Virus record (IMG/VR): IMGVR_UViG_3300033146_005439
Coordinates: 32,001-96,000 of that record
Length of the DNA stretch: 64,000 bases
Direction: 5' to 3' (one strand)
From: a virus
The notes beneath the pieces are model-generated. The model was not told the DNA's origin. It was given only the letters and a program-made list of their open reading frames with translations, and did not search any database. This document shows, piece after piece, positions 37,629 through 62,022 of this stretch (position 1 is the stretch's first letter; the number at the start of each line of letters is the position of its first letter). The position numbers and the translations under genes were made by a program.

Positions 37629-39617
37629 TTAAACCTCCACTGCATTATTATGTATAACAACATTAACTTTATCTCCTATATCTAACACACCTGGATAACC
37701 ATTAATTGCTATCATATCACCAACTCCATCAACTCTAATCTTAAAATGTACATGATCTCCAAATTGTTGTATAATTGTTCCAGTAGCTGTAATATCTTCT
37801 ACTTGTTTTTTATACATACCACCACCTATACCAGAAAAATTACCAAAAGAAATGTCACCTTCTACAACAGTTATTAAATAAGAACCACTATCAGAATAAC
37901 TATAAGTAATTGTATTTATAATCTTACCTTGCGGTCCTTTAGAACCTACCTTAGGAACACTATTAGGGCCACAAGTATGTGTATAATTAATACCAGCATC
38001 TTTTTTTAATAATTTATATAATTGATTTGATAAATTTTTAGTACCTCTTTCATCTAAAGAAGCCATATTAATAGAAAGTGTCCTACCTCTCATACTATTT
38101 TGAGCACGTTCCATAGGTGTATCATCAAAATCCTGCTGTGTTGTAGGATCATTATCTTTAATACCTACAGTTTGATCTACAAGTTCTCCATTTAAAGCTA
38201 TAGGAGGAGGTTTTTCTTCTAATACTATGGGTGTTATAGAAATCTCCATATTATTTGCAATTTCAAAAGCTTTACCCATAGGATCACTAACTATAAAACA
38301 AGGTGTATCTAAGTCCACTTGTGCCCATACTTGTAAAACTAAATAACCTGTACCATTACCATCTGTAGGCAATAAATTACCCTTAGCTACATAACCTAAA
38401 TTATTTTCTTCTATTATAGGATTTAAAAAATCTAATAAATCTGATGAAGTATAATCTACATAAAAATTAACATTAGATCCATAACGCCCATTATCATTAT
38501 ACATAGCATTATTGGCAAATTGTATTTTTATAATACCACTAGCCTCTTCAAAAGAAGCGTCCGTATAGTCTTCTATATAATGTATTCCTGGACTTAACTT
38601 ATATATATTAGTTTCAGCAGAATTAGCTGACACAAAAACAACTGTATTTTCAGGTTTATTTCCTTGATAAGCTTTAGAAGGTATAGGAATGCCTCTACAC
38701 ATATCTAATTTTATTCCCACTATATAAAGCTGATTTATACCCATAAATTTATTAACTAAAGTACCTCTATAAGATTCATAAGTTAAATTTTCTATCATAG
38801 GCACAAAAAACTCTACAGGGTAACCTTCATAAGAATTATTTAAATCTTCAAAAGGCTGACAATCTACAGTATCACCTGTCATATTAACATACTGTCTTCT
38901 ACGAGGAATACCCAAAGAACCATTTTCTGATACCATTATAGGTACCGAAGAAGTATTTCTTTGTATTATATTAACTGCAGGATTAGTTTCTGTATTCAAA
39001 GTTACTTGCCAAGCCCACCCAATTATACTTTGAAAAGGTGAAGTTAACTCAAATTTATTAGGAATGCCATCACGATAACTTGTTTTACCAGTAGTCAACA
39101 AAGGATCATCATAAGTTATAACTACGGATGTAGAAAAACCAGGAACTGTACAAGAAGAAGTAAGCCTAGTTGTGTCCCATATAGTATATTTAGAATCACC
39201 TCCTATAATATGTTTAAATTCATAAGATACCCTAGTAGCTTTAGGTTTACCTCCTGTAACCATAACATTTACTTCTCTTGGTAGATAACCAACAGATTTA
39301 ATTGTATAATATATATCTAAACTTGTAGATTTCTTACCTACAGCATAAACTTCCACTTCACCTTCAGAATTAACTCTTAATTCATATAAAGTACCTTCTA
39401 TAGCTAATAATTCTAACAAAGAAGCTTTCATGGCTTCTAAAGGAGGCACTCTTTTTAAATCAACATTCTGCAATTTACCTGATTTAATAAAACCATAAGG
39501 AATATCATAAGTATCAAGCACTTCTTCTATTATAGGCTTTGTATCAACATCTAAAGGTATTTCATAAGAATTATCTTGAAAAGTAGGCCATACAGTACTT
39601 GTATTAACTTCACCCAT
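37629..39617 (-). CDS. baseplate/tail protein with C-terminal OB-fold-like segment
   Basis: Directly after the tape measure gene. The likely start is ATG 39617 (MGEVNTS), overlapping the TGA of the giant gene; the ORF track extends to 39653. C-terminal TGTII...FKIRVDG...IGDKVNV. Confidence 0.5.
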   Translation of the reverse strand: MGEVNTSTVWPTFQDNSYEIPLDVDTKPIIEEVLDTYDIPYGFIKSGKLQNVDLKRVPPLEAMKASLLELLAIEGTLYELRVNSEGEVEVYAVGKKSTSLDIYYTIKSVGYLPREVNVMVTGGKPKATRVSYEFKHIIGGDSKYTIWDTTRLTSSCTVPGFSTSVVITYDDPLLTTGKTSYRDGIPNKFELTSPFQSIIGWAWQVTLNTETNPAVNIIQRNTSSVPIMVSENGSLGIPRRRQYVNMTGDTVDCQPFEDLNNSYEGYPVEFFVPMIENLTYESYRGTLVNKFMGINQLYIVGIKLDMCRGIPIPSKAYQGNKPENTVVFVSANSAETNIYKLSPGIHYIEDYTDASFEEASGIIKIQFANNAMYNDNGRYGSNVNFYVDYTSSDLLDFLNPIIEENNLGYVAKGNLLPTDGNGTGYLVLQVWAQVDLDTPCFIVSDPMGKAFEIANNMEISITPIVLEEKPPPIALNGELVDQTVGIKDNDPTTQQDFDDTPMERAQNSMRGRTLSINMASLDERGTKNLSNQLYKLLKKDAGINYTHTCGPNSVPKVGSKGPQGKIINTITYSYSDSGSYLITVVEGDISFGNFSGIGGGMYKKQVEDITATGTIIQQFGDHVHFKIRVDGVGDMIAINGYPGVLDIGDKVNVVIHNNAVEV

Positions 39618-42600
39618 TATATAAACCCCCCAATGCAGATACAGAATAAACATGTGTTAATATACGATTTAATTTAGCTTCTTGTTCCATAAAACGTGTA
39701 TTCATTTCTTGAGAAAGACCTGATTTATCCGAACGAAGAACATTTAAATCAGAAATTAAGTCATTTATTTGTTTTTCTAAATAGGCAGTATCTAAAGTAT
39801 GTTTTTCTTGTATATCTGATAATACTGCTATACTAGAGGTATCTTCTATCTTAGTATTTAACATAGTTATATCTTCTGTATGCCTTACCTTTAAATCAGT
39901 TATTTGATTACTTAAATTATCTAACACAGTAGCTAATTGATCATTTTTTTCCGCACCTACTGCTGCACCAACACCTTCTAAGTTAAGGGAGGTTAATTTA
40001 TTAACAGCCGCCTCAAAAGAAGATGTATCCACCTTTATAGTTGCCTCAGGTAAATCTACAGGTACTTTAACTCCTGTAACATCTACACCAATTTTAGCTT
40101 CACCTACATCAACTGAAACTTTCGCATCATTAACATCCACAGGAACTTTAGCATCACCTACATCAACCTTAACTGTAGCATCACTTACATCAACAGGCAC
40201 TTTTGTATCAGAAACATCCACTTTAAATTCTACAGATTTTAATTCTTCTATAGCTTTATTTAATTCACCAATATTATCAATTGTTATAGAAGTAGTTGGT
40301 ATATTTAAACTTTTACTATCCAATTCATCAGATAAAGCTAAACCTCCATTCTTAAAATTTTTAGAAACAACCAGTTCCCCTTTTTCTAAGAAATAATTAC
40401 CTGTAGAGTTAATCATACCTCCAGTATGCTTATGTCCTTTTACAAAACCGCCTAAAAGATGCTTCTTTAAAAAAGCTTCAGGTGAATAATCTTTAGTAAT
40501 AATATTCATAAAAGCATTTTCCTCAGTGCCCGCTTTTATTACAGAAGATTTACTAGAAATACCTGGCGTTTTAAAATAAGAGGAGCCTATAAAAGAACTA
40601 AACTCTTTTCTATCTACATAAAGTTTTCCTGTTTTAGTATCTTTATAAATAGAACCATCTTTAATACGTTGATTTATACCTGCTGAATCAATGCCTATGT
40701 GCTTTAAATAAGAAACGCTTACTGGAAAATACCTTCTATTTCTTCCCCCTGATAAGTCAAAAGTATCTCTTTTTTCAGCTACATTTTTAAACACTGTACC
40801 TGCTAATTTATCTTCAAATAAATAACGCATATTAGCAAAAAGATTACTTTTTTCAACTACGTCAGAAGTATTCTTATATTGAGACATCATGCCTTGTAAA
40901 GTCTTAGTACCTTCAACTAAAGATTTCATCATAAGTGCTTTAGTTTTTGGATTCTTTACATCTGCCCAATTCTTAATATTAGCTACATCAGTATCCCCAA
41001 ATACAGCAATATTCATATTACCTTTATTAGCTTCTATAAATTTAGTTAACTTAGCTTCATCACCACCAAAACGTAACAATGAGTCTATATCTTTAAAAAG
41101 TTTTCCAGATTTAGTTGTAACATCATACTTAGTATTTTTAGCTCTACTAGGCATAGCTTCTACATCGGCAGAAGCTTTCCCAAAAATATCTATACCTCCG
41201 GACATCTTATACTTATTTAAGTCGTCTTTCCTTAAAGCTTCATAATCAGGACGAGCAGCAGATAATTGTCTCGATCTCAAAATTCTACGAGCTTTCATTT
41301 CTTTTTTCTGCTGATCAAAAACATTAGCTCTATTAGCTACATGCATATCATAAGAATTAGTATAATAACCTAAATAATTATCTTTTATCATAGGTGATGC
41401 GTTATTTACTTTAACACCGCCACGTAAACCTGTATTACCTACCATTTTTAATAAAGTAGCATCACTTATAGTTTTAAAACCAGCTTTAGTTATACGTTTT
41501 CTTTGACTGTTTAAATCCATAAAACTAGGTGCTGGTGCAAACATTGTTCTATTTGTAGCTCTTGTTACGTCTTCACCACGATATTTCTTTTTATTTCTAT
41601 AATAATTATCTATTTTATTAGCATCTATACCTTGAGATTTAAAATATTCTGAGATAGTCTGTAACTCTGGTAAAACCATTTCTTCCCAAGCTCCTTTACT
41701 ATTCAATTTTTGTATCCCAGGACCAAATAAATTGGTATAAACATGCTTTTTATTTTTTATAGAACCACCTAAAGCGAACTTATAAAAGTCTTTTGTTGCA
41801 TCACCTACATAAGGAACTCCTTTAGGTACTTGTCTATTTATTTTAAATTCTTTTTGAACATTCTTATTTGTTAAAATCTTAACAAACATCTTTTTTATTT
41901 CATTAGGTGTTTGTGCAGAATACATAGGTTCTTTAATACCTGCTAAATCATGTAGTCTAAATAATTCTGCTAAAGGTTCGTCCGAAAGTTTAAGTTCATC
42001 TGCGCCCATACTTCTATAATTTTTTAAACTTTCCTTAGCATATTCCGTAGCATATTTATCTTTTAAAGCTAAATTTCTCCAGTATTTATGAAGATCAGGA
42101 GCATCTTCTAAAAATTTACGAGAAGCTACATGACCTATTTCATGCACCATAGTAGCTCTTAAAAGTTTATCTTGATCTTGAGCTATACTACGCATATGAC
42201 CAGAAAGAACTTTTACATTAGGATTATAAATATTACCCGCAGCTATATCTACTTTAGAACGCCCAGTACGTAAATCTTTATAAGCTCTGCCTAAGTTACC
42301 TTTCTTTTTATTTATAGCACTTAAAGCTGATACATCTAAATCAACATCACCTAAAATATCTTTATACTTTGACATAACAGACGATACTGTTTTAGTATAA
42401 CCAGGTAAAACATCTGCGGGTAATCCTGATGCTCTAGCCATTAAAGAAGCTATAGAACTGCCTCCAGATTTAACATTTGTACCAATAGCTCCTATCTCAT
42501 TAGACAAAGGATTAAAGCCCTTTAAACGAGAAGCTACACCCCCAGATAGAGCTGTTCCAGCTAAAGCACTTAAAATACCTGAAGTTACTCCTAAACCACC

Positions 42601-45600
42601 TTTTTTAATATCCCCCATAAAACTAGTTTTAACACTAGCACCTATTTCCTTCAATTGTTCAATATTAAGATTAGAAACAAAACTACCAACACCTTTAGCC
42701 ATAGAAACACCTTTAGCTAAAGTGGTTTTCATACCTTTCTGTGCTTGATATGTTGAAATATTCTCTATAGTCTTAAGAGGGTCTAAAGCTAAAGTTTTAC
42801 CTACTCTAGCACCTAGTTCTAAAGTAGCAGCACCAGCTTGACCTAAAATATTATGAGTTCCTTTTAGTCTATAATCTTCTAAAGATTGTATTCCTTTACC
42901 AGCTTGCGTAGATAGCCAATTAAAAACACCACCACCAGAAGCGTAGCCTTTACCTTGATTCAACTTTCTAGCAGCAGTAACACCACCTATAGCTTTAACT
43001 TCATCAGGTGTTAAAAGTAATTCACCATTACTAACATTTACAGGAACACCTCCCTTAGCAAAATTATTTAAAGAAGTTTTAGCCTTATTAGCATATTTAG
43101 ATTGTATAATAAAAGAACCTTCTGGCACACGCATACTGATACTATCAGAGGTACCTGTTCCTGGACCCTTTATAGTGGTTCCTATAGTACCACCTAAAGC
43201 TTTTTCTTCAGAAGTTAACTTCTTAAAATAACGAGCTGGTGAAAAAGGCATAGTTTTAGAACTAAAAGGTATACTACCAGGAAGAACATGTTGAAATAAG
43301 GTTTTTAATTTGTCGCCAAAAGATTTTAATTCATCTTCCGGAAAAAATTTAGTTGAATCTATACCTAAAGTACTTAGAGTATCTTTTGCCTGTTCCTTAC
43401 CTCCAGACATAACTTCTAATATCTTAGCCAAAATAAGTGTTTGAGAATCTAAAGCATTAACTACAGGTGTATTAGCATTTTTAAAATAATCAGCATATTT
43501 AGTTTCATCACCACCAAAAGCTTTATTAATTAAACCTGTCTTTATATCTTCTAAAATAGTCATGTCAGGTTTTTGAGCTACAGCATTATTACGTGTATTT
43601 TCACCAGCCTGTTTAATCATATCATATAACTTAGAAGCCTGTTGCCCAAAATAACCTCGTTGCTCTTCATTAAAATTATAATTAGGATTATTAGCAAAAG
43701 AAGACAACTTATCAGCAAATTCTTTTATAGGAGCAAAATTAGTTCTTGTTATATCTGAAATTTGTTGTAATTTTTCAGACTTCTTATAAGCAGCTTTTTC
43801 AGAAGGTATTAAATTAAGTTGAGTTAAAATATCAGAACGTTGAGTCCCTTTAGAAGTTCTTAATTGTTCCATTAAATTTGCTCTTTTTATATCAAACTGA
43901 TTGGATGCGCCTAAAGTAAGTTGAACACCCGCTTTAGATGCCTTGTATTGAGCATAAGGATCAATAAATTGAGGAGCAAAAGAAGAAGAACCTCCATACA
44001 TAGATTCTAAAGAACGTTTAGCTTCAAAACTACCATACTTCAAACCAGATAAAGAATCTGTAGCCTGCGAAATACCTTGTTCTAATTGAAGCATAGCAGC
44101 AGACAAACTTTTAAAACCATTTAAAGTTAAAGAAATGGAAACTAATTCTTTTTTCAATTTATTTAAAACATTATCAGTTTCTTTTGCAGATTTGGATAAA
44201 AGTTCAAGTTCAAGTCTAACCTGTTTTTGCACTACTGATTCTGAAGTTGAAAACCAACCTTTATTACTAGGTAAAGCATTATACTCCTGAGTCTTTAAAG
44301 CTAACTGTTTAGCTATACTAGAACGTTCAGCTAACTTAGCTTCATATAAAAATTGCCTATCTTTATAAGAACGCATTAAATTTTTAGCTTTAGCTCCTCC
44401 AGCCAAACCCATAAATTGTTCAACATTTAAATCATTAATATTATTAGGAATTAATTGTAAACCTGAAGGAGTACCACGTAAATTACCATTAAATCCTTGA
44501 TTTTGTAAAGAATTTAAATCATCTAATCTTTGTGACATTAATTCTGCTGTCATATCTGTAGCAGAACTAAAACGATTCAAGGCTTGTTCTGCTAAAAGTG
44601 ATGCTTTTAATAAAGCTCCGCCATGGGCTAGTTGAGATTTAACCAATTTAGCTAATTTATCAGATTCTTTTTTAATTAAGGTATCCCATTTTTTCTGTTC
44701 ACCTGAATTAACAGCTTGAGATCTATTAGATACCATAGCATTAATTCTACTTTGTGCATCTATTATAAGTCTATCTAAAGATTTATAAGCAGTTAAAGCT
44801 TTTGTTGTATCTGTAGGAGATTTAAAAAAAGAACTCGTTTTTTCAACTAAAGTTTTAGGCTCTTTACGACCTTCTAATAACTGCATCAACTGGAACTTAT
44901 CTAAACCTCGCATAGATGTTTCACCTAAAGAAATATTAGTAGAAGGTACACTCATACCAGCATAAATACCTTTACCTATTTTTAAAGAATCTTGTATATC
45001 TTTAGCAAAATTAGTATTTTTTATATCTCTTTCTATAGTTTCTAATTGAATCTTAAATTTCTCTGCTAATTCTAATTTAGTTAATTCTGCTTTTAATTTT
45101 TTAACATCTTCTGTAGTATCATCAAAAGTAGTTTCAAGATTCTTTTTTAATTTTTCAGTATCTTTTACAGCTTTTTTATAAGCCTCTTCAGAATCCAATA
45201 TAGTAGATTCTTTTACAGTAGATTGATTACCACCAACTTTAGTACTATTAACCGTCTGTTTATGTAATTCATCGTAAACTTGTTGTGCTGCAACCGAATT
45301 TTCTGAAATAATGGCACGTAACTTAGCAGCTTCTACATCAGCCCCTTGTTTTAAATCTGCTGCTCTAACTTTTTGAGTATCCTTTTCTGCTACATAACGT
45401 GCTAAAGTGGAAGCTGTTGCTGCAGTAGCTATTTGAGCCACTTTATTATAATCTATAGGATCTACAGATACAGTAGGACCTTTAACTTCTCCCCCTGCAG
45501 CAAAACTACCAATAATACCACCGTGAGCTAAAGTATCTAATTGACCTTTTTGTAATTTAAGTAACTTGTCCCTACCTATAGCCTTAGCCATAGTAGGTGG

Positions 45601-48600
45601 TATAATTAACTCACCATTACTAACTCGTATAGTGGCAGTTTTGCCAGAAGAACCTGTATTATTAGTAGCATAACTAGATTTAGCAATCAATGCTTTTGCT
45701 TTATTAGCATATTTAGAAGGTATTACAAAAGAACCTTCAGGCACATCTTGCAAAAGTATAGAATCAGAAGTACCTGTGCCAGGCCCTTTAACAACACCTC
45801 CTTGAGCAAAAGATTGCACGTAGCCTCCAAAAGCTTTATTATCTTTTTTAGTAGCCATCTTATCAACAGCTTCTTTCATTTTATCAGCAGCTTCATTCAT
45901 CTTGTCCGAAGCTTTTTCCATACCAGGTTTAATATAGTCTTCCCTAACAGATTTAGGTTTAGTAGCACCTGCAACTTCTTTAATCCCTAAAGATTCTTCT
46001 GCAAAATCTTTCATAAAAGTTGATGAAGCTTTTTTCAAACCTCTAAAAGCAAAAAATTCTTTAACTTTACCAAATATACCTTCGGATTCTGATACAGTTT
46101 TAGCAAAATCTTTTAAAGCTTGTCCATATTTCTTAAAACTTTCGGGTAGTTCTTCACCAGTTAAACCTGTTTGCATTTTAGCTGCAGCATAAGTCCCTAT
46201 AGCTCCTCCAACTGCTCCGGAACGCATAGACCATTTATCACTAAGGCCCATTTTACGCGCAAATAAAGTTGCTGCACCAGTACCTGCAGACATACCTTGT
46301 AAAGAACCATAAAAACGAGCTTTTTTATACTCTTGAGCTTTTTGAGCTAATAACTCTTCTTGACGTTTTCCATACTCTCCTGATAGTTTATATTTCTTAC
46401 CTTCGGGTGTAATAGTAGAAGATACTACTTCACCTGCCTTTAAAGCGCGTTCTGATAATTTTTTTAATTCTTGATCAATAGCTTCTATCTTTTTACTAGT
46501 ATAATTTCTTTTATATGTAGCAAATACTGCTGTTCCTGCAGCTAAACCGGCCATATTTTTAGAATTAAGTAAAGAACTCTCTGCTACCTTAGTTTTATTC
46601 TCTTTTTGTAGAGCTTCTAAAGTGGCTACTTGTTTATCAAACTCCGGAGTACCTCCCTTACTTCTTAAACCAAACCATTTACGTTCATCTGGCATTTTAT
46701 TACGTAATTCACCTAATAACGTATTAGCATTCATACCGGCAAACGCTCTACTATACATTTCTTTACTAGAATATGATCCTGGACCACCAACACTTTTATT
46801 GTCTATCATCTTAGCAGCGCCAGCCAAACCTTCTCTAGAAATGAGTCGTTTAGTCAATAAATCTAAAGCTCTATTAGATTTAATTAACATCTCAGAATCA
46901 CCTGTTTTTGCAGCGGTATCTCTTATTTTGGCTACTCTATCTAAAGCGGATACTATTTTACCACTTTCTGTAACAAAGCCCGGTAATAAAGCAGAAACTA
47001 TATCATTAGGTGTAAGCATTAAATCATCTAATAAAGTAGAAAGATTACGTACTTCACCTTGTTTATCAAAACGCTCTATTAATTTGTCTAATCTATCTAC
47101 GGTATTAGCTGTATTTTCAGCAGTTTTTGTAGTATCTACTTTTAATTCTTTTAATTCATTACCTGGCCCTGCTACTTCAGTTAAATACTTCTGAAAATCT
47201 TCAGGTTTAACAGCTGTTCCAAAACCTTTAGATACCTTTCTAATACTATCCAAAGCTACTTTAGTTTTATCTATAGCGTAAATATTATTTGCTGTACCTT
47301 CACGTTTAGCTTCTAAAACCTTTAATTGTTTGGCCATAGCCTCAAACTTAGGATTTTTAATAAGCAATCTTTGCTGAGCAGTTAATTTAGTTTTATCTTG
47401 TATGCCTAAATCTAAATTAGCTAACTCTTTACTTTTTCCTGACATTAAACCAGCAGTTTCTCTAGTTAATTTTAAACGTGATTCTGTAACAGCAACATTC
47501 TCAGCAGTAGCTCTACTATTAGCTTCCATAGCTTTAGTTAAATCTACAAAAGCAGCTCTATATTGCATTATAATTTGATTATTCTTCAAAACATTCTGAA
47601 GTTGTACAATCTGATCATATAAACCAGTAGTCATTTTTATAGATTTAGCGTCTATACCATCTAACTTCATTTTTTGAAGACGTTCTAATAAGAAACGATA
47701 CTCTTCCATAGGTTTAGCATAATATTTCTTAAAATCAGCTGCCCAACCCTTTTGAAAAGGTGACTTACCAAAAGATTTTTCTAAAGGATTATAACCTTTT
47801 GCACCTTGTAAAATAGTAGAAGTACTTATTTCACTAAAAAAACGTTCTCCTAGATTAAAATTACGCTTAAAATCTTTTGGTGAAATACCTCGTAATCCAG
47901 CCCCCGCTCCTGCCATAAATTCATTTAAAGCACCTATTCTATCAGATAAATCTTTTTCTATTTGTCTAACAGGTAATACAGAATCAACGATAGCTTGCAT
48001 ATTACTATCAAACTTATGTGTTTCTACTTTTAAAGTTTTAGTGTTAAAGTAAGTAGCTACCCAATCATAAGTTCCATCAATAGTCTTTTTATATTCTACT
48101 ATAGCTTGACGACCTGCCATATTAAATTTCTTAGCTGCATCATCCATAAAAGTTACAATATCACCACTTAACACTTTACCTTGACGCTTAGCAATACCAG
48201 CACTTTCAACATTAGCTGTAGTTAATTCTTTAGTAACATCTAATAAACCAGATTTAGTAGGATAAACACGTTTCATTACTTCTTGACCTAAAACATCTTG
48301 CCAAGAAGCTTTACCTTTCATAGCACCTACTTGAAATTTTGGTTCTATTTTAAGAGCCATCTCATAACCTTTTTGTAGTTCAGGACTACTTAAAATTCTT
48401 GAAATTTCATCAGTAGGTAAACCTTTTAGTGACATACTACTTAAAGTTTTTCTAAAACCTTCATAAGAACCCTTAAGTTTATCACTTAATTTTGTTACTT
48501 TCTCTTGTAATTTAGAAATATCTTTATCATAAATATCACTTAAAGAATATTTATTTTTCTGTGACATCATATAATTAAGTTCTTTTACTGCCTCTTTTAA

Positions 48601-60600: not shown

Positions 60601-62022
60601 GCTTAATTGTTTTTCAAAAATAGAAATACTATTTAAAATGTCTTTTCTTAATCTATTAGCTTTACCTACACCAGCACCTCCTGGAGTAGCTTCAGGTAAA
60701 GGTTTCTGTAAAGTACTTTTTACAACACCTAATGGAGCAGAAACTTTTTTATTAGCTACAATATGATTAACACGCTGTGGCTGAGTTGTATTCTTAAAAG
60801 AAAAAGCCTGAGTCTTGTCTTGTAACTTTTGTAAACTCTTATAAGCTTGCTCTAACTCAGAAACTAAACCTTCACCTATACCTTTTGCAGATTTAAACTT
60901 AACTATCGTAGCTTTTAAAGCATCCAACTTATCAATAATATATTTTAACTGATCTACAGCTACAGCTAAAGATCTGGGATCACCTATGACTGATGAAATA
61001 GTAGTGTCACCTTTAATTTTAAGTTTATGCTCTTCAGATAAAACTTTCTGAACTACTTCTAACTGCTGCAATAAATCTATTAAATCATTCTTTTTAACGT
61101 CTACTTTTAAAGATGCTTTTTTCTCACCTTCAATAGCTTCTATTTGATCAGTAATCTTACCTAATTTTTGAGTAGCTTCTTGGTCATCAACTTTAACTTT
61201 AACTTTAACTATTTTATCTGCTACATTTTTAAAAGTAGATACTACTGTATTTAAACTACTAACTATCTTTCTTAAATTATTTAAAGAATCTTTAGATACC
61301 TCTATTTCTGGTATATTAGCTACTTTTAATACTATATCAGAAAGAACTTTCTTTAGCCCCGAAGCATCAGCTCCTGTAGTGGAATCTAATTTTTTAATTA
61401 AAGTTGTAATTAATTTTATAAATTGTGAAAAGTCGCCTTTAAAATCTTTAAAAGGATTTTCTAACTTATAATTAGAACCTTGCTTATTATATCTGGCTAA
61501 TTCTTTGGCTAAAGCTTTAGCAATAGCTTTTGCTAAAGCATTATTATCAATATTCAAATCTGTGCGTTTAGACACAGTAGTACTAATTGATTTTGTTAAA
61601 GAAGTAATTAAACTAGCAAGTTCTTTTTGATCTTGAGATGTACCTAAAGAAGAAACAGATCGAGTTAAAGTACCTTTTAAACCTTTTAATTCTGATAATT
61701 CTTTAGCTAATACTTTAATTACTTTTACAAGATCTTGTATTTCTTTTACATTTTGGGGTTTTTGGGTAGTTTGTAGTTTACTTAAAAGTTTAGTAATTTC
61801 TGAAATTTTATTATTATACTCTTTTAATACTGCAGCCACTTCTGAAGAAGCACTACCCTTACCTTTATCACCGGCTTTTGCCGCTTTTTCTAATATAGCT
61901 ATTAATTTTTTATTAAGACGTTCTAAAGTCTGTGCAGACTTTTGTGTAGGAGCCTGAGTTTTTGTATTAGATGTAGAATCAGTATTCTTAATATTTACAG
62001 TATAAGTAGTATTATTAGCCAA
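39610..62022 (-). CDS. giant (7470 aa) tape measure protein fused to a single-chain beta/beta'-like RNA polymerase, a PD-(D/E)XK nuclease and an HEXXH metallopeptidase
   Basis: One uninterrupted ORF with a TTG start and GGAGA RBS (62031-62035), located between chaperone-like genes and baseplate genes. Domain motifs are listed in the sub-features. Confidence 0.85.
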   Translation of the reverse strand: MANNTTYTVNIKNTDSTSNTKTQAPTQKSAQTLERLNKKLIAILEKAAKAGDKGKGSASSEVAAVLKEYNNKISEITKLLSKLQTTQKPQNVKEIQDLVKVIKVLAKELSELKGLKGTLTRSVSSLGTSQDQKELASLITSLTKSISTTVSKRTDLNIDNNALAKAIAKALAKELARYNKQGSNYKLENPFKDFKGDFSQFIKLITTLIKKLDSTTGADASGLKKVLSDIVLKVANIPEIEVSKDSLNNLRKIVSSLNTVVSTFKNVADKIVKVKVKVDDQEATQKLGKITDQIEAIEGEKKASLKVDVKKNDLIDLLQQLEVVQKVLSEEHKLKIKGDTTISSVIGDPRSLAVAVDQLKYIIDKLDALKATIVKFKSAKGIGEGLVSELEQAYKSLQKLQDKTQAFSFKNTTQPQRVNHIVANKKVSAPLGVVKSTLQKPLPEATPGGAGVGKANRLRKDILNSISIFEKQLSNIDLTTLNKTLEQLSTKQGALLSKAIDDVDQSYKDITTINKEVVKVRKEEVKTTSQLNKARELEARTIQSNIRKQASTSTAGLRSFRRTVPTKAFKEMPIYPGESFIQSTSKAASSIKNPYEKEVYANAKNLAKSLQVLQKRIFDELNKGLKQSSDNSGRWNVVGKTPGQAFKLRGRQWNVDIASSKALESYTGKKGPIDKLLNDYKRKLSKQLFGEGGQKDVVSKEVEKHFDNVAEWLKNNLNTRTYDGKLKEIVNKISKDPAASTKNISDLLQKNFKDHLDELYGATLGEGEIRQLLSKQGVLKTVSLPSAKITSKGTPIVETPSGRQRALSSYSTYKSGFEKAFDTYVSELKSRGSLNSNKAMELAKGTRALDSGKVPANMDAITKALVKALALPGNTRARNLQDIGLEDVKKIYKQATIPMAIEKQRITSGTVAPVKAKTAQKEFEALINRTAASAKSVDAFIDAMDTAGMSAYKVVKSLDEISFSNFYDILNKTLPQKIEAITKHADTSERGFRKFEKAISQMEGLLPIVEYDKPRRGMHQSNIVKSMYQTSSAYQKQFKDDTEFEPMFGPEQQKEFIRNVNKRNRELLYEYQNLDKLDVPEVKTRKKQINLGNARALSSLGLPESTAGAIVDFSKNNTYNFTDEVDFKGINELNTLHGKMISLYKDDLKAMAPFGQQFQQLGRNISNVSSAKIFDPTAYAKASGIKSQFPTLRSNRENEAIMSGRMGTQGYGFNVLAELSHTASTFEDQIVVAGDLAKAVTTVTKKLVRPTSAGGKATAIQEGDISKAGSEIMSIMGVPEKYKGRADVALIKEVKKELSTVRGESTEVQTAKLAEVFMNHFGRKFTTRYGSKGVSITPTKSGSMAEILKKYKEPSIKVMTAAEQKKAGLGVAMLPKSMGELASEIIKQNASQLKGTASIPVEDLVKALKTSGNKFMLELFKNPEKGLVVGGEANVNKKVFEQTQQVFKQLGIELKDGIEGIQQLKTQYSKIFPSKSLVKAKPIDIRISSFGAAKRGLQTEALEMITGNLASTSKTGTTVIKDKIDYKKLLGPTSKKGTLSSYAATLGYAGTGKSEAAIRKAIEKMYGDKAAENKEFIDALVKLESDSSFYVDVIDELGNKHKSLVGPKFVQIIEDAKQFQEWSKGDIASGAKGLKLNLPAYAAYQSIFGPDSNMLKQINAAYDAKQAEAYENILTYLISSNKDYGEQFLKELNTVSLKDIKPFEGSFGTFEKGAANSMLGSVFDTDKFPTAFKTKLPTANRNVKEDFYVPSSIARQPFADPNVAGGYGITGTGRALQNVLTSARSLSAYQNKDLSLLNENDKKTILKYFGGNLQSKLKNTDESSKKTYIEQLFKVAEQNASSEKGLLPESIKKYNAAGLQGVGTASQKEYVAALKEAFVNNKISAKNKLGPLDRTAAELKTLLLGDYQPGKGSSGPSIVSSKKGTNAQFKVLEDIKASMGMDFNEVALFKKDENQILTKKLAQLEKAKQEYFKSLEQELVGKSGAVAQTFFTKKIPAVLAKATNAMVDKTADMKKFGSMLDNINKQYAGVIKDLGQADFTKDVSLVKSLGAEHAKKVASYKKIGLPVLKQNELGIPKKLADKLSVSYTKKFDTKGQVTKSSDVKSTLTSLLTYVEKLEKSLAEGSAQPEVRDYIDKELAPYIESVRFPFTGTSSVQPYKAKLLKTTKGLNEDSLLVPGVPEMDVNKFDALFKSIKARMEQASTKREELRTIGTPETNQKADELTKYIDALSKALSDALPKYIAQAQKLDYDGDQIEIHTATIKEARQEIKRHFDLLTKEVDSTAARFRDVFTYDAMQPTQGAAPLAFMAKAYTKKFPKEHGFDYLQKPFYTENLSYLSNKEKINILASKKVDTDNLTGPDAVNTLMTEMFTKAGASFKSIEGVETLDEAAQKAAEALDKLTEQDKPMAGLVEGYLKESLSNLKFDNAVNAQLFKLHTGTDVESLTKLMRSYEAQIGFGSGEINNARSGNKLDRTNLLRERQTQLNELYRFAVQKGMDVKHAGETPVAGELSSLLTKGPKALEVLIGKIKAGGNYGGLKDFMEENDKALKLNLGRYKTEDLRKAAQEPYMNIQNAEQLNRPELVNAMVKAMGFEGFLRSLQKSIEKQAIAYLSQTKDEKTGEPLGEAGAKKYLTSLYEKGKGINMSKMVTEPFDPLYKYRTGAASGRLKSGLMETFASDIKHPTKDTRGGAYSLMTGSFSKDLQRVNSSIDSKKLEAMGLAIENITFDSAKSVQSLRAFIDELDSLETALRIAPISVNKRTQILQSKSVIGKLTNKPAPPKSGMSEEELISFYKAYDSFIETKALLTERIKRLNTALSVQAKDITSTSTTELPRRNQIQETRAKLAEAKYNRAKGLSGAQSKSGGVLPPTPTEPSVGKYSMGSGIVPVHLVSVNSDVFTKFANTFSMVKAAANTVSAGSDQTTYINKLKDIAARASGGANELKDASFETMYRASAFHGGGKFSFKENYKGPDFEKQVASIKETMLGTAMKDVDKDLLDSTSLIGTALHEMIEDRMVEASNKIKGQGTPIIEKFVSYADDAVGAITGHVDAILTNAEGKMTTAVDIKTVSGKLKDTLGKAVEGAGSADVGAVLGKLGNKKSSSYARYKIEEVRSQLNFYMKALQEAGDDVQQAEVHFYDRMGDPKNEKPVVVRFKFDENLFKKDMKAIKVAREAIQKEIASGKPISFAKTGSLETLSKIAKEESLYKAKGAQVPGRPSKSEIQELLKGGRSYYEAYRNKGAFYKSKGTGSAGISQDQINKFTKPEYQKPQTLNLTPYSGSGPVAELKNIKLLRAAAKTMQASHGVDLEKAAKELPRQAQDMIEGAKTGNVKASDFFKYIKDVQILDKSRENPELDGAKLANAWKLFKDAQLEYLIKKAEQAKQYLENVKKTEDSRQISLAYTDFTKAVGDVQAHVKKGVGKRSDIYTRNKVWSQPDIAKAAGVYMSPSEIESKAAVDIEGDSDLYETYKKIVGDLSGDKRDAMASPMEKARFAIKSLTSMDDELIKLMEDGKLLERLGPEIAEAWDFKGGAQKITRLRDALELFKQYNVSDSPLSVERKNLEQTIKMLKDAENKLTYMDLGRQTTKKGPGAWGETGVVSVPKWLDPKTQEALNKRNIAKIRDYMKTPAAKGGAKVGETYIYKAKVFDQAGNAVKNVQTAFTKYKEVVDATGNTIGKFTTKQIDMNESLAGSHRGIQGAIKRAVMWGAASTIVYGGFNKLKESVGVLADIEVQMASLRMVMNPLTSDFDNLQKSAINMAKQYGVAVTDVLQGMKVFAQQGLPEPQILERTQTATLAANVTTLNAKDATEALTAAMKVFNKEGKTSMHFLDAWSEVESKHAITAGDMADAIKKAASAAKNAGFTFDQLNGIVAAIGSTTRQSGKEVGTSMRFIMRRLTSEKGPKELGKLGISTITGSGELKGGFNILDELAGKWKDLTQAQKMNIAQAIGGTRQYNALLVLMDNWGQALEAIRHSVDSKGSAERKNQELMKTYAKQLEQTKAAMVELQTSVGKVAFPVFKFGLKAVKTIAETLAGIPDSIKAAGAAMLGFLVFLSKGDKIISSIADTLSTGTPVAGGLFGSIKDELKTAAFEILGAGAGTTSVRGLKTVTPGVVSGVAGGKQLSDFNSALGKSTYLIANLGKKFNSYVAATAKGTASATGFVGKTLKKIGNFLSFTSTALSGASSAGVKDKGEDTTWKDIGLRAAGTYGSAKGVKELFKKYGFKSLGKLAGATTAVAGEFVGLGASAAGMFVDAFSKKLGAGGDLFKEWAGKNSGLVESIAPLGLTIMTLLPAFKSLSKEFIASMQSAEAFEKSMYGLKRSQEDQLKTLRNVAHGYSTFKKGYQDIIKSMSPAAQKESKRLGTYRSPLLEMVDKQQEATKMANDLAKVNNSLVAGYDELGNAVLKASGDFENLFSVLEKSKLREMAKTDVSIASKYIKDMTATGGSEKWKYELKALAKEVPAIGGLLSKGINVTPAKALKEAVKELNYMMSQKNKYSLSDIYDKDISKLQEKVTKLSDKLKGSYEGFRKTLSSMSLKGLPTDEISRILSSPELQKGYEMALKIEPKFQVGAMKGKASWQDVLGQEVMKRVYPTKSGLLDVTKELTTANVESAGIAKRQGKVLSGDIVTFMDDAAKKFNMAGRQAIVEYKKTIDGTYDWVATYFNTKTLKVETHKFDSNMQAIVDSVLPVRQIEKDLSDRIGALNEFMAGAGAGLRGISPKDFKRNFNLGERFFSEISTSTILQGAKGYNPLEKSFGKSPFQKGWAADFKKYYAKPMEEYRFLLERLQKMKLDGIDAKSIKMTTGLYDQIVQLQNVLKNNQIIMQYRAAFVDLTKAMEANSRATAENVAVTESRLKLTRETAGLMSGKSKELANLDLGIQDKTKLTAQQRLLIKNPKFEAMAKQLKVLEAKREGTANNIYAIDKTKVALDSIRKVSKGFGTAVKPEDFQKYLTEVAGPGNELKELKVDTTKTAENTANTVDRLDKLIERFDKQGEVRNLSTLLDDLMLTPNDIVSALLPGFVTESGKIVSALDRVAKIRDTAAKTGDSEMLIKSNRALDLLTKRLISREGLAGAAKMIDNKSVGGPGSYSSKEMYSRAFAGMNANTLLGELRNKMPDERKWFGLRSKGGTPEFDKQVATLEALQKENKTKVAESSLLNSKNMAGLAAGTAVFATYKRNYTSKKIEAIDQELKKLSERALKAGEVVSSTITPEGKKYKLSGEYGKRQEELLAQKAQEYKKARFYGSLQGMSAGTGAATLFARKMGLSDKWSMRSGAVGGAIGTYAAAKMQTGLTGEELPESFKKYGQALKDFAKTVSESEGIFGKVKEFFAFRGLKKASSTFMKDFAEESLGIKEVAGATKPKSVREDYIKPGMEKASDKMNEAADKMKEAVDKMATKKDNKAFGGYVQSFAQGGVVKGPGTGTSDSILLQDVPEGSFVIPSKYANKAKALIAKSSYATNNTGSSGKTATIRVSNGELIIPPTMAKAIGRDKLLKLQKGQLDTLAHGGIIGSFAAGGEVKGPTVSVDPIDYNKVAQIATAATASTLARYVAEKDTQKVRAADLKQGADVEAAKLRAIISENSVAAQQVYDELHKQTVNSTKVGGNQSTVKESTILDSEEAYKKAVKDTEKLKKNLETTFDDTTEDVKKLKAELTKLELAEKFKIQLETIERDIKNTNFAKDIQDSLKIGKGIYAGMSVPSTNISLGETSMRGLDKFQLMQLLEGRKEPKTLVEKTSSFFKSPTDTTKALTAYKSLDRLIIDAQSRINAMVSNRSQAVNSGEQKKWDTLIKKESDKLAKLVKSQLAHGGALLKASLLAEQALNRFSSATDMTAELMSQRLDDLNSLQNQGFNGNLRGTPSGLQLIPNNINDLNVEQFMGLAGGAKAKNLMRSYKDRQFLYEAKLAERSSIAKQLALKTQEYNALPSNKGWFSTSESVVQKQVRLELELLSKSAKETDNVLNKLKKELVSISLTLNGFKSLSAAMLQLEQGISQATDSLSGLKYGSFEAKRSLESMYGGSSSFAPQFIDPYAQYKASKAGVQLTLGASNQFDIKRANLMEQLRTSKGTQRSDILTQLNLIPSEKAAYKKSEKLQQISDITRTNFAPIKEFADKLSSFANNPNYNFNEEQRGYFGQQASKLYDMIKQAGENTRNNAVAQKPDMTILEDIKTGLINKAFGGDETKYADYFKNANTPVVNALDSQTLILAKILEVMSGGKEQAKDTLSTLGIDSTKFFPEDELKSFGDKLKTLFQHVLPGSIPFSSKTMPFSPARYFKKLTSEEKALGGTIGTTIKGPGTGTSDSISMRVPEGSFIIQSKYANKAKTSLNNFAKGGVPVNVSNGELLLTPDEVKAIGGVTAARKLNQGKGYASGGGVFNWLSTQAGKGIQSLEDYRLKGTHNILGQAGAATLELGARVGKTLALDPLKTIENISTYQAQKGMKTTLAKGVSMAKGVGSFVSNLNIEQLKEIGASVKTSFMGDIKKGGLGVTSGILSALAGTALSGGVASRLKGFNPLSNEIGAIGTNVKSGGSSIASLMARASGLPADVLPGYTKTVSSVMSKYKDILGDVDLDVSALSAINKKKGNLGRAYKDLRTGRSKVDIAAGNIYNPNVKVLSGHMRSIAQDQDKLLRATMVHEIGHVASRKFLEDAPDLHKYWRNLALKDKYATEYAKESLKNYRSMGADELKLSDEPLAELFRLHDLAGIKEPMYSAQTPNEIKKMFVKILTNKNVQKEFKINRQVPKGVPYVGDATKDFYKFALGGSIKNKKHVYTNLFGPGIQKLNSKGAWEEMVLPELQTISEYFKSQGIDANKIDNYYRNKKKYRGEDVTRATNRTMFAPAPSFMDLNSQRKRITKAGFKTISDATLLKMVGNTGLRGGVKVNNASPMIKDNYLGYYTNSYDMHVANRANVFDQQKKEMKARRILRSRQLSAARPDYEALRKDDLNKYKMSGGIDIFGKASADVEAMPSRAKNTKYDVTTKSGKLFKDIDSLLRFGGDEAKLTKFIEANKGNMNIAVFGDTDVANIKNWADVKNPKTKALMMKSLVEGTKTLQGMMSQYKNTSDVVEKSNLFANMRYLFEDKLAGTVFKNVAEKRDTFDLSGGRNRRYFPVSVSYLKHIGIDSAGINQRIKDGSIYKDTKTGKLYVDRKEFSSFIGSSYFKTPGISSKSSVIKAGTEENAFMNIITKDYSPEAFLKKHLLGGFVKGHKHTGGMINSTGNYFLEKGELVVSKNFKNGGLALSDELDSKSLNIPTTSITIDNIGELNKAIEELKSVEFKVDVSDTKVPVDVSDATVKVDVGDAKVPVDVNDAKVSVDVGEAKIGVDVTGVKVPVDLPEATIKVDTSSFEAAVNKLTSLNLEGVGAAVGAEKNDQLATVLDNLSNQITDLKVRHTEDITMLNTKIEDTSSIAVLSDIQEKHTLDTAYLEKQINDLISDLNVLRSDKSGLSQEMNTRFMEQEAKLNRILTHVYSVSALGGLYNG
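40024..40221 (-). repeat. about seven tandem 27-bp (9-aa) repeats near the C-terminus of the giant protein
   Basis: VDVSDTKVP VDVSDATVK VDVGDAKVP VDVNDAKVS VDVGEAKIG VDVTGVKVP VDLPEATIK VD. Confidence 0.9.
41930..42330 (-). other. zincin-like metallopeptidase domain within the giant protein
   Basis: TMVHEIGH (42130-42144, H6627-H6631), then TEYA and a downstream EPLAELF carrying the candidate third ligand. Confidence 0.7.
49850..50930 (-). other. tape measure core domain (TP901/PhageMin_Tail-like)
   Basis: AVMWGAASTIVYGG...AINMAKQYG...FAQQG...ATEALTAAM...TRQSGKEVGTSMRFI...ELAGKWKDLT...IAQAIGGTRQYNALLVLMDNW, followed by hydrophobic segments (AAMLGFLVFL). Confidence 0.85.
52510..53175 (-). 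other. PD-(D/E)XK (RecB/Cas4-like) nuclease domain within the giant protein
   Basis: RASAF, GTALHEMIE (H3007), IIEK, ITGHVDAIL (D3048), VDIKT (D3063/K3065), QLNFY (Q3113). Confidence 0.8.
54450..56800 (-). other. RNA polymerase beta'-like region of the giant protein (~aa 1740-2520)
   Basis: FYVPSSIARQP (cf. LPVLPPDLRP); LVGKSGAVAQTFFTKKI (IKGKQGRFRQNLLGKRV); LKQNELGIPKKLA (LRLHQCGLPKKMA); VRFP at ~55579-55590 (NRAP); LDYDGDQIEIHTATIKEARQE with DYDGD at 55264-55278 ([21 protein letters not shown]). Confidence 0.88.
57050..59690 (-). other. RNA polymerase beta-like region of the giant protein (~aa 780-1660)
   Basis: Colinear beta motifs: SLPSAKITSKGTPIV..GRQRAL (cf. IPLMTDNGTFVINGTERV); RGMHQS (RDVHPT); GYGFNVLAEL..TFEDQIVV at 58327-58350 (GQNMRVAF..NFEDSI); GRKFTTRYGSKGV at 58021-58059 (GDKMAGRHGNKGV); PIDIRISSFGAAKR (PVDIVLNPLGVPSR); VGPKFV (VGYMYM); GLKLNLPAYAAY (GQRFGEMEVWALEAY). 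Confidence 0.85.

What the first reader, a model, noticed from the sequence alone, without database searches (positions are those of the whole stretch)
39610..62022. Tape measure protein fused to a complete RNA polymerase: a candidate tail-injected transcription machine
Seen: one 7470-codon ORF in the canonical tape-measure position (after chaperone-like genes, before hub/spike genes). It contains a tape-measure core (~aa 3700-4060) and, upstream of it, ordered catalytic motifs of both RNA polymerase large subunits (FEDQ at E1227/D1228; K1324 and K1332 in KFTTRYGSK; R2146 in RFP; D2249-Y-D-G-D2253). Established: tape measure proteins fill the tail tube and leave the virion at infection. The virion RNAPs I know (N4, phiKZ-like, crAss-like) are separate capsid-packaged proteins. 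Inference: this phage loads its early RNA polymerase by covalent fusion to the tail ruler, so the enzyme is delivered at or before DNA entry, and transcription might help pull the genome in. I do not know of this architecture being characterised, but I cannot check the literature here.
Basis: partly seen in the sequence, partly recalled or inferred. Interest (0 to 1): 0.96.

Follow-up and report, generated by a model that had tools for sequence, protein, structure and literature searches.

The report
RNA polymerase fused into giant tape measure
The 7,470-residue tail "ruler" protein of this uncultured large phage has a cell-type RNA polymerase core built into its front third, so the phage probably injects its own transcription enzyme through the tail. 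That design was shown in 2024 for Thermus phage P23-45, and here it occurs in a large lineage with no detectable sequence relation to it.

Summary
Window 39610-62022 (-) is one 7,470-codon ORF with a Shine-Dalgarno site and a TTG start. Pfam PhageMin_Tail matches aa 3749-3947 (E 7e-32).

The fusion is not an assembly artefact. 57 other giant proteins from independent assemblies share the layout. A syntenic 234-kb relative has a 7,722-aa version.

The beta-prime half is supported by structure. The model of aa 1680-2299 matches only largest RNAP subunits (Z 10-11, 240-284 residues aligned).

The beta half rests on invariant motifs that map exactly onto E. coli RpoB NFEDS and GRHGNKG. Its barrel fold could not be modelled.

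The protein has no cysteine in 7,470 residues, against 1.6% in the other ORFs. P23-45 gp96 and SPbeta-type YomI also have none.

The architecture is already characterised: Thermus phage P23-45 gp96 (Chaban et al. 2024, PMC10770324). This family shares no detectable sequence with gp96 beyond DFDGD, and it aligns with the beta-prime clamp region. It also carries a candidate nuclease. I read it as a separate variant of a known kind.

Delivery through the tail and early transcription are inferred, not shown.

This scan had already reported the same family on other DNA (77 findings, at least 61 genomes).

The parts
39610..62022 (-). Giant ORF, 7,470 aa: tape measure protein with an embedded RNA polymerase module
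   Evidence: 57 homologues of 4.5-8.0 thousand aa share the layout. The syntenic relative G001 has a 7,722-aa open frame, stop to stop.
62020..62036 (-). Ribosome-binding site GGGAGA, an 8-nt spacer and the TTG start codon
60223..62022 (-). aa 1-600: poorly conserved, K/E/Q/A/L-rich N-terminal region
53923..58575 (-). aa ~1150-2700: conserved RNA polymerase module, beta-like part followed by beta-prime-like part
   Evidence: Conservation profile; family searches; motif and structure evidence
57853..58455 (-). aa ~1190-1390: beta-like motifs FEDQ (1226-1229), GRKFTTRYGSKG (1322-1333) and PKSMG (1375-1379)
   Evidence: Invariant in 53-57 of 58 members. Family HMM blocks hit E. coli RpoB only at 808-823 and 1063-1076. 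The fold was not modelled.
55123..56985 (-). aa ~1680-2300: beta-prime-like clamp region and catalytic barrel with GIPKKL (2076-2081), RFPFTG (2146-2151) and DYDGD
   Evidence: The AF2 model has pLDDT 80-93 in this region. VIA-align gives Z 10-11 with 240-284 aligned residues, to largest RNAP subunits only.
55264..55278 (-). D2249-Y-D-G-D2253, the Mg-binding aspartate triad
   Evidence: Invariant in 58 of 58. hhalign to E. coli RpoC 455-480. HMM block 0 of 1000 shuffles. Pfam PF00623 is weak.
52648..53040 (-). aa ~2995-3125: candidate PD-(D/E)xK (RecB/Cas4-like) nuclease with H3007, D3048, D3063-x-K3065 and Q3113..Y3117
   Evidence: The motifs are kept in 46-51 of 58 members. PHROG 1706 matches weakly (E 0.0018). 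One relative, L007, lacks them.
47071..51207 (-). aa ~3606-4984: tape-measure core; Pfam PhageMin_Tail at aa 3749-3947 = window 50182-50778
   Evidence: This is the most conserved block of the protein.
49153..49929 (-). aa 4032-4290: glycine-rich stretch with two hydrophobic segments (4032-4050 and 4272-4290), candidate membrane-inserting part
45583..45855 (-). aa ~5390-5480: first copy of the GPGTGTSDSI...SNGEL repeat
42958..43230 (-). aa ~6265-6355: second copy of the same repeat
   Evidence: PHROG 11341 E 2.9e-22
42130..42144 (-). HEIGH (aa 6627-6631), a zinc-peptidase-like motif
   Evidence: HExxH lies at a similar position in only about a third of homologues, and this region aligns poorly.
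62044..63896 (-). Two conserved upstream genes (340 and 246 aa) of unknown family, in the slot where tail chaperones usually lie
   Evidence: Syntenic in G001 at 48% and 61% identity. No family match.
37629..39653 (-). Downstream 674-aa gene, probably translationally coupled (alternative ATG at 39617 behind GGGGGG); candidate distal tail protein
   Evidence: Syntenic in G001. No family match.

Best explanation
The ORF encodes a tail tape measure protein whose N-terminal third is a single-chain two-barrel DNA-dependent RNA polymerase of the cellular beta/beta-prime type. A candidate PD-(D/E)xK nuclease follows it, then the tape-measure core, a hydrophobic glycine-rich part and a variable C-terminal region.

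Shown here: the fusion is real and conserved, and the catalytic residues of both halves are under strong purifying selection. The beta-prime-like half folds like the clamp and active-site barrel of cellular RNAPs. The whole chain, polymerase part included, is free of cysteine, as are the two other tape measures I counted.

Inferred by analogy with P23-45 gp96: a few copies sit in or at the top of the tail tube in a metastable form. At infection the C-terminal and hydrophobic parts leave first and form the channel through the envelope. The N-terminal polymerase follows just ahead of the DNA, refolds at the channel exit and transcribes the first genes to enter.

No second polymerase signature was found in an 89%-complete relative. 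Later genes would therefore depend on the host polymerase or on newly made copies of this same protein.
For: The ORF, its start and the motifs are confirmed.

Tape-measure identity: PF10145 E 7e-32 and PHROG 4211 E 3e-81. The best tblastn hits are tape measures of Bacillus phages, including SPbeta-type YomI.

Fusion conserved: 57 giant PF10145-bearing homologues at 30-45% identity over aa 1100-2700, from ENA, JGI, Logan and NCBI assemblies. An exhaustive search found 111 clusters. Synteny with the 234-kb relative G001 is clear. Contigs from two studies cover the whole stretch 44000-62100.

Catalysis-relevant residues are invariant: E1227, D1228, K1324, K1332, R2146, P2148, D2249, D2251, D2253 and H2258 in 57-58 of 58 members. 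The [RK]xPx{20,100}DxDxD filter used in PMC10770324 Supplementary Data 4 is met: 100 residues lie between P2148 and D2249.

Structure: the AF2 model of aa 1160-2359 has pLDDT 71 overall and 80-93 over the beta-prime part. In the search of PDB representatives that did not use Foldseek, the best non-helical hits are RPA190, NRPD1, ASFV Rpb1, Rpb1, Mtb beta-prime, archaeal A', QDE-1, vaccinia, AR9 and phiKZ subunits and a designed DPBB. In the second look, all 50 top rows are largest RNAP subunits, Z 10.1-10.7 with 211-284 residues aligned (240 or more in all but two rows).

Collinear sequence hits of family HMM blocks on E. coli: RpoB 808-823, RpoB 1063-1076, RpoC 359-374 and RpoC 458-477. The last scores above all 1000 shuffles.

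Cysteine: 0 in 7,470 aa against 1.59% in the phage's other ORFs. 60 of 76 giant homologues have none. gp96 has 0 in 5,002 aa and YomI 0 in 2,295 aa, while E. coli beta-prime has 15.

Precedent for the mechanism: PMC10770324.
Against: The beta-like barrel was not modelled. It stayed below pLDDT 50 and was drawn as helices in both AF2 runs, so 'two barrels' rests on motifs for one of them.

The individual beta-block HMM scores are low (about 2 bits; 7-15 of 1000 shuffles reach them). The argument rests on their exact placement and order.

Foldseek gave no hit at E <= 0.001. The Z scores of 10-11 are interleaved with helical-bundle noise in the search of PDB representatives.

The bridge helix and trigger loop (aa 2300-2700) were not examined structurally.

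No proteomic, transcript or activity data exist. No cultured relative exists among 50,697 phage records.

The genome record is only about 42% complete, so a second polymerase in this phage cannot be excluded.

A folded polymerase with a clamp would not fit a tail-tube lumen. It would have to travel unfolded or be stored elsewhere.
Confidence: 0.72

Rival explanations
1. The protein is a precursor. The polymerase (and nuclease) part is cut off in the producing cell and acts as the phage's ordinary, non-virion polymerase. Only the C-terminal ~4,000 residues enter the tail as the ruler.
For: No other RNAP signature was found in the 89%-complete relative, so this could be the only phage polymerase. 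A HEIGH peptidase-like motif is present. The segment between the polymerase and the tape-measure core is poorly conserved. The beta-prime-like part aligns with the clamp region, which looks too bulky for a tube lumen.
Against: The cysteine-free composition extends over the whole polymerase part, as in gp96 and YomI. This is hard to explain for a purely cytoplasmic enzyme. The fusion is kept in every full-length member found, and no close stand-alone form appeared in an exhaustive search without a length filter. HExxH is not conserved in the family. In P23-45 the fused form is in the virion (PMC10770324).
Confidence: 0.15
2. The polymerase-like region is an inactive or re-purposed relic. It might be a structural or DNA-gripping domain that helps DNA exit, or an enzyme with another two-barrel activity such as RNA-dependent synthesis or priming. 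It would not be an early-gene transcriptase.
For: The beta-like barrel could not be folded. QDE-1, an RNA-dependent enzyme, is among the structural hits. Other nucleic-acid enzymes ride in the same position in relatives.
Against: All metal-binding aspartates and both basic residues are invariant across members that are only 30-45% identical, which argues for catalysis. The best matches in motif wording and in aligned length are DNA-dependent multisubunit enzymes.
Confidence: 0.1
3. Assembly chimera or missed stop or frameshift: two genes wrongly joined.
For: One contig of run X1 carries a 1-base insertion at window 61402, near the poorly conserved N-terminus. No single Logan contig spans the whole gene.
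Against: The same uninterrupted architecture is found in 57+ proteins from independent assemblies and sources and in a syntenic 234-kb record. Contigs from two studies tile all 30 bins of 44000-62100. There are no stops in 22.4 kb of 30%-GC DNA.
Confidence: 0.02

Closest known systems
Thermus phage P23-45 gp96 (Oshimavirus; also P74-26, G20c, TSP4): tape-measure-fused virion RNA polymerase (PMC10770324; PDB 8H2M, 8H2N)
   Same: Both are one giant ORF in the tail module, with a single-chain two-barrel RNAP N-terminal to the tape-measure part, a D[FY]DGD triad and hydrophobic segments. gp96 also has a metallopeptidase domain; here there is only an unconserved HEIGH motif. Both chains are completely free of cysteine.
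   Different: No sequence similarity beyond DFDGD was found by hhalign, HMM blocks or tblastn of all ORFs. Here the polymerase starts at about aa 1150 rather than 327. The gap between the two catalytic centres is about 1,000 aa. The beta-prime part aligns with the clamp region, which gp96 lacks. The beta and beta-prime motifs read like cellular ones. A candidate nuclease follows the polymerase. The protein is 7,470 aa against 5,002. The genome is about 235 kb in the relative G001 against 84 kb. No second (gp64-like) polymerase was found.
Cellular multisubunit RNAP, beta (RpoB) and beta-prime (RpoC)
   Same: The motifs are collinear: NFEDS/FEDQ, GRHGNKG/GRKFTTRYGSKG, QCGLPKKMAL/ELGIPKKLA, RAPTLH/RFPFTG and NADFDGDQMAVH/KLDYDGDQIEIH. 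The structural match to beta-prime residues ~12-505 gives Z 10-11.
   Different: Here there is a single chain with the beta part before the beta-prime part. It has no zinc-binding cysteines. Pfam models do not reach their thresholds (PF00562 no hit; PF00623 13-14 bits against a cut-off of 25.3). It has no alpha or omega partners and is fused to a tail protein.
Virion RNAPs of crAss-like phages (phi14:2 gp66, PDB 6VR4), and SPbeta YonO and QDE-1 of the same single-chain two-barrel group
   Same: All are single-chain two-barrel polymerases. gp66 is part of a large virion protein that is delivered at infection.
   Different: Those virion enzymes are packaged in the capsid and are not fused to a tape measure. 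No similarity to YonO was found. gp66 was not compared by sequence, and neither 6VR4 nor 8H2N appears among the structural rows listed, which does not exclude them. QDE-1 aligns over only 129 residues.
TP901/SPbeta-type tape measure proteins (PF10145; YomI)
   Same: The core domain is 27-31% identical to the best Bacillus-phage tape measures, including SPbeta-type YomI. It has glycine-rich hydrophobic segments, is cysteine-free and sits in the tail module.
   Different: It is three times longer and carries about 3,300 extra N-terminal residues with enzymes.

Membership tests
Two-barrel (double-psi beta-barrel) RNA polymerases | Beta-prime-type barrel with the DxDxD metal-binding loop | tested here: met
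   DYDGD is invariant in 58 of 58. hhalign aligns it to RpoC 455-480, E 0.003. The HMM block scores 9.4-11.5 bits with 0 of 1000 shuffles reaching it. The confident model matches largest RNAP subunits at Z 10-11 with 240-284 residues aligned. Pfam PF00623 stays below its cut-off.
Two-barrel (double-psi beta-barrel) RNA polymerases | [RK]xP 20-100 residues before DxDxD (the filter used in PMC10770324 Supplementary Data 4) | tested here: met
   R2146-F-P2148, then 100 residues, then D2249. R and P are invariant in 58 of 58.
Two-barrel (double-psi beta-barrel) RNA polymerases | Second, beta-type barrel supplying two basic residues | tested here: inconclusive
   Motif level: K1324 and K1332 are invariant in 57 of 58, and E1227 and D1228 likewise. 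The family blocks hit RpoB only at 808-823 and 1063-1076, the known catalytic motifs. Fold level: pLDDT under 50 in both AF2 models and no structural hit. hhalign and PF00562 found nothing.
Two-barrel (double-psi beta-barrel) RNA polymerases | Bridge helix and trigger loop after the catalytic barrel | not tested
   aa 2300-2700 is conserved but was outside or at the edge of the model. No block hit stood out.
Two-barrel (double-psi beta-barrel) RNA polymerases | Template-dependent RNA synthesis | not testable with these tools
   Needs a biochemical assay.
Tape-measure-fused virion RNAP (P23-45 gp96 type) | RNAP and tape-measure core in one polypeptide, RNAP N-terminal | tested here: met
Tape-measure-fused virion RNAP (P23-45 gp96 type) | Sequence homology to gp96 | tested here: not met
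   hhalign probability 0.1. No tblastn hit of any ORF to the P23-45 structural half. Only the DFDGD decapeptide matches.
Tape-measure-fused virion RNAP (P23-45 gp96 type) | Flat, clamp-less polymerase architecture | tested here: inconclusive
   The model aligns with beta-prime residues ~12-350, the clamp region. This suggests a clamp-like part is present. The inter-domain geometry of the model is uncertain (pTM 0.56).
Tape-measure-fused virion RNAP (P23-45 gp96 type) | Paralogous non-virion RNAP in the same genome | tested here: inconclusive
   None was found by profile, Pfam or signature in G000 (42% complete) or G001 (89% complete). Divergent enzymes could be missed.
Tape-measure-fused virion RNAP (P23-45 gp96 type) | Present in virions and active on pre-early genes | not testable with these tools
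   No cultured member. No RNA run listed.
Phage tail tape measure protein (PF10145, TP901 family) | PhageMin_Tail domain above the Pfam threshold, in a tail gene module | tested here: met
   111.3 bits against a cut-off of 33.2. Twelve PHROG tape-measure families match. The flanks are syntenic. The tube-like upstream gene is a lead only.
PD-(D/E)xK nucleases (RecB/Cas4-like) | H ... D ... (D/E)xK ... QxxxY motif set and fold | tested here: inconclusive
   The motifs are kept in 46-51 of 58. PHROG 1706 gives E 0.0018. There is no Pfam or PDB profile hit. One relative lacks them.

The most novel reading that the evidence does not exclude
This would be a second, independently evolved tape-measure-polymerase fusion. 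A cellular-type beta-then-beta-prime single chain, with a part that aligns to the beta-prime clamp, has been grafted onto a TP901/SPbeta-type tape measure in a widespread lineage of uncultured phages of about 235 kb from sediment and vent habitats. It would serve as the phage's only polymerase. The N-terminal extension of the tape measure would act as a general, cysteine-free 'cargo rack' for injected nucleic-acid enzymes: a PD-(D/E)xK nuclease here, a 3'-5' exonuclease in some relatives, and RNA ligase, LigD phosphoesterase and RNase H in a distant subfamily. If the whole chain acts as the ruler, as the P23-45 proportions suggest, the tail would be about 1.1 micrometres long, longer than the roughly 800-nm tail reported for P23-45, itself called extraordinarily long.
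Probability: 0.45. Interest if true: 0.72.

Novelty: new variant of a known kind. Interest (0 to 1): 0.58.

Why it matters
Only one phage group (Thermus Oshimavirus) is known to deliver its first polymerase as part of the tail ruler. This family would show that the strategy is widespread: 111 clusters at 50% identity. It would also show that the strategy has probably arisen more than once and is compatible with a much more cell-like polymerase.

The family offers a natural test of how an enzyme of about 1,500 residues can be stored in, and pass through, a tail tube. It bears on whether transcription helps pull in a genome of more than 200 kb. It also points to the tape-measure N-terminus as a modular carrier for injected enzymes.

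In practice, tape measures of this size are annotated only as 'tape measure' or 'hypothetical', so a whole class of phage polymerases is currently invisible to annotation.

Tried and rejected
Sequence searches that found nothing:
- phmmer and a profile of the polymerase region against PDB sequences gave only chance hits.
- hhalign against gp96 aa 1-1200, E. coli RpoB and YonO found nothing for the beta part.
- Pfam PF00562 had no candidate in the genome.
- tblastn of aa 1100-2700 against 50,697 phage records found no match at E <= 1.

Structure searches that found nothing significant:
- Foldseek against PDB and BFVD gave nothing at E <= 0.001, although many beta-prime chains are among the weak PDB rows.
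- The second AF2 model (aa 1100-1560) left the beta-like barrel under pLDDT 50, and its fold search gave only helical noise, Z <= 5.7.
- The ESM Atlas look-up of aa 1100-1560 gave low scores and tape-measure-like composition only.

Complex prediction: complex prediction of the two halves returned 'no answer' (score 0.00; the partner's fold was uncertain). This is not evidence either way.

Neighbouring genes: PHROGs and Pfam on about 28 neighbours named no tail, capsid or terminase family. Pfam Phage_sheath_1 and T7-type RNAP had no hit in three records, and the control for the latter rang nowhere.

The context of most homologues could therefore not be read.

Apparent stand-alone forms:
- The short hits of 2.3-3.1 thousand aa are fragments on 10-24 kb contigs.
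- Relatives of the 2,236-aa hit P0133 lie inside an open frame of at least 5,982 aa.
- The context of the 1,000-aa hit P0142 could not be fetched.

Sequencing runs: no RNA holder was listed. The 'joints' have sides of 20-23 letters and are taken as noise.

Nuclease: a profile of the nuclease region against PDB found nothing.
Full report
1. THE OBJECT

Window 39610..62022 (minus strand) is a single open frame of 7,470 codons. It begins at TTG 62022, 8 nt behind GGGAGA and 21 nt after the stop of the preceding gene. The next gene probably starts at an ATG that overlaps the giant gene's last codons.

The window is bases 32001-96000 of a 111,382-bp IMG/VR virus record. The record is linear, and CheckV estimates it to be 42% complete. 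Nearly all genes lie on the minus strand, and GC is about 30%.

A 234,228-bp relative (G001, 89% complete) is collinear with it over about 100 kb. That stretch includes the giant gene, which is 7,722 aa there, and both of its flanks.

2. THE TAPE-MEASURE HALF

Pfam PhageMin_Tail matches aa 3749-3947 with 111 bits (cut-off 33.2; E 7e-32). Twelve PHROG tape-measure families match aa ~3600-5000, the best at E 3e-81. tblastn finds 274 phage records, all tape measures of Firmicutes phages, including SPbeta-type YomI. This block is the most conserved part of the protein.

Further features lie C-terminal of the core:
- a glycine-rich stretch with two hydrophobic segments;
- two copies of a GPGTGTSDSI...SNGEL repeat;
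- a HEIGH motif that is not conserved in the family.

3. THE POLYMERASE HALF: SEQUENCE

A word-indexed search restricted to proteins of 4,108-13,073 aa found 57 others. All carry PF10145 and are 30-45% identical over aa 1100-2700. They come from ENA, JGI, Logan and NCBI assemblies on contigs of up to 325 kb. An exhaustive search of 1.84 billion representatives gave 111 clusters.

Conservation within the family:
- D[FY]DGD occurs exactly once in each of the 58 proteins.
- In a full-length alignment E1227, D1228, Q1229, G1322, K1324, T1327, G1330, K1332, G1333, R2146, P2148, T2150, G2151, D2249, D2251, G2252, D2253 and H2258 are kept in 57-58 of 58.
- The published filter [RK]xPx{20,100}DxDxD is satisfied.

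I built HMMs from short family blocks and ran them against E. coli RpoB and RpoC plus 1,000 shuffles. The blocks land on the known catalytic motifs, in order:
- the FEDQ block on RpoB 808-823 (NFEDS);
- the GRK block on RpoB 1063-1076 (GRHGNKG);
- aa 2066-2081 on RpoC 359-374 (QCGLPKKMAL);
- the DYDGD block on RpoC 458-477, which no shuffle reaches.

The scores of the beta blocks are low. Their weight lies in the exact placement. The same blocks find nothing in P23-45 gp96 except DFDGD, and nothing in YonO.

4. THE POLYMERASE HALF: STRUCTURE

An AF2 model of aa 1160-2359 was built with 36 aligned sequences (mean pLDDT 71, pTM 0.56). It is confident (80-93) over aa ~1960-2300 and moderately confident over 1370-1800.

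VIA-align against 48,161 PDB representatives puts largest RNAP subunits at the top among non-helical hits. These are RPA190 (Z 11.1, 267 residues), NRPD1, ASFV, Rpb1, Mtb beta-prime, archaeal A', QDE-1, vaccinia, AR9 and phiKZ subunits, and a designed double-psi barrel. All lie over model residues 521-1139.

The second look at Foldseek's 1,000 best chains gives 50 of 50 top rows as largest subunits. Z is 10.1-10.7, with 211-284 residues aligned (240 or more in all but two rows). The rows align with beta-prime ~12-505, or ~12-780 in Thermus numbering. That is the clamp region plus the catalytic barrel. Foldseek E-values themselves were not significant.

The beta-like barrel (aa ~1190-1390) stayed under pLDDT 50 in this model and in a dedicated 461-residue model. 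Its fold is therefore untested.

5. A COMPOSITIONAL SIGNATURE

The protein has no cysteine in 7,470 residues, while the phage's other ORFs have 1.59%. The binomial probability of zero is about 1e-52. 60 of 76 giant homologues also have none, and the rest have at most four. P23-45 gp96 (5,002 aa) and an SPbeta-type YomI (2,295 aa) also have none. E. coli beta and beta-prime have 7 and 15.

The polymerase part thus shares the cysteine-free composition of gp96 and YomI, proteins that leave the virion through the tail. This fits delivery of the whole chain better than a cytoplasmic-only role.

6. WHAT IS KNOWN

Chaban et al. (Nat Commun 2024; PMC10770324) showed that the N-terminal part of P23-45 gp96, a 5,002-aa tape measure, is a virion RNAP that transcribes pre-early genes. 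They solved its structure (8H2M, 8H2N). They also proposed that it works at the tape-measure pore while the DNA enters. They named only P74-26, G20c and TSP4 as sharing the fusion.

Full-text searches for later work found no other family. The kind is therefore known, but this lineage appears undescribed in the library I could search.

It differs from gp96 in several ways:
- no detectable homology;
- cellular-type motifs;
- a part that aligns with the beta-prime clamp region, which gp96 lacks;
- a spacing of about 1,000 residues between the two catalytic centres;
- a candidate nuclease;
- a genome about three times larger (about 235 kb in the relative G001 against 84 kb).

7. OTHER PARTS AND CONTEXT

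The segment at aa ~2995-3125 keeps the H, D, DxK and Q..Y motifs of PD-(D/E)xK nucleases in about 80% of members. The only family hit is weak (PHROG 1706, E 0.0018), and one relative lacks the motifs.

Relatives carry other enzymes in the same chain:
- an RNase_T-type exonuclease (PF00929) in three members and a lytic transglycosylase in one;
- in a distant subfamily on 211-545 kb contigs, RNA ligase, LigD phosphoesterase and RNase H between the polymerase and the PhageMin_Tail domain.

No second polymerase was found in the near-complete relative.

Contigs of a likely source run, and of a hydrothermal-vent metagenome from another study, tile the gene. NCBI fragments of the family sit in bins labelled Thorarchaeota, Methanogenium and Gammaproteobacteria. 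These are probably mis-binned viral contigs, so the host is unknown.

8. VERDICT

The mechanistic reading is the best available, but it is inferred by analogy. The novelty claim must be lowered to a new variant of a known kind.

The same family has been reported repeatedly by this scan on other DNA: 77 findings in at least 61 genomes, with follow-ups reaching the same reading.

Noticed in passing
L037:8825-26770 (IMGVR_UViG_3300005077_000489, 211 kb); also L035 and L036: A distant subfamily, about 22% identical over the polymerase, has an open frame of at least 5,982 aa. It carries the RNAP module, then RNA ligase (PF09414), LigD 3'-phosphoesterase (PF13298) and RNase H (PF00075/PF13456), then PhageMin_Tail. 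The tape-measure N-terminus looks like a modular carrier of nucleic-acid enzymes.
   Followed up: partly
proteins P0051, P0052, P0055 and P0048: Three family members also carry an RNase_T-type 3'-5' exonuclease domain (PF00929). One carries a lytic transglycosylase domain (PF01464).
   Followed up: no
window 61402: One contig of run X1 has a 1-base insertion (G) here, inside the poorly conserved N-terminal region, with two nearby substitutions. It is probably a related strain and has not been reconciled.
   Followed up: no
G001 (L030-L032), about 184.2, 199.6, 213.7, 214.2 and 214.7 kb: The palindrome TATAGTATACTA(TA) recurs in intergenic regions of the plus-strand block of small genes, a candidate early region, in the 234-kb relative. 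It could be a promoter or an operator. That region is missing from this genome record.
   Followed up: partly
L013:2262-3092, 3135-3713 and 5567-6982 (genome 96262-100982, just outside the window): Two or three HNH/homing-endonuclease genes (PHROG 559 and 3339, E down to 1e-110) are inserted among the structural genes upstream of the tape measure. Two adjacent ORFs look like one split copy.
   Followed up: no
L013:3855-5444 (genome 97855-99444): This 529-aa protein is 71.5% identical in the relative, the best-conserved gene near the tape measure. It has no Pfam, PHROG or PDB hit. The language-model look-up points to tail-tube families (Phage_tube_2 at 0.92, YomU_Tube at 0.82). It is probably the tail tube protein.
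   Followed up: partly
window 30418-32274: This 618-aa protein ends in a bacterial Ig-like domain (Big_1 / invasin D3, E 8e-10). It is likely a tail fibre or a decoration protein.
   Followed up: no
window 11125-23733: Two further very large genes (2,277 and 1,791 aa) lie downstream and have no family match. They are syntenic but only 26-32% identical in the relative, and are presumably fibres or baseplate parts.
   Followed up: no
NCBI records RLI54203.1 and MFA5396084.1; L010 (JAUVDT010000035.1): Fragments of this phage protein family are deposited inside MAGs labelled Thorarchaeota, Methanogenium and Gammaproteobacteria. One is named '3'-5' exonuclease, partial'. These are probably viral contigs binned with cellular genomes.
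   Followed up: no
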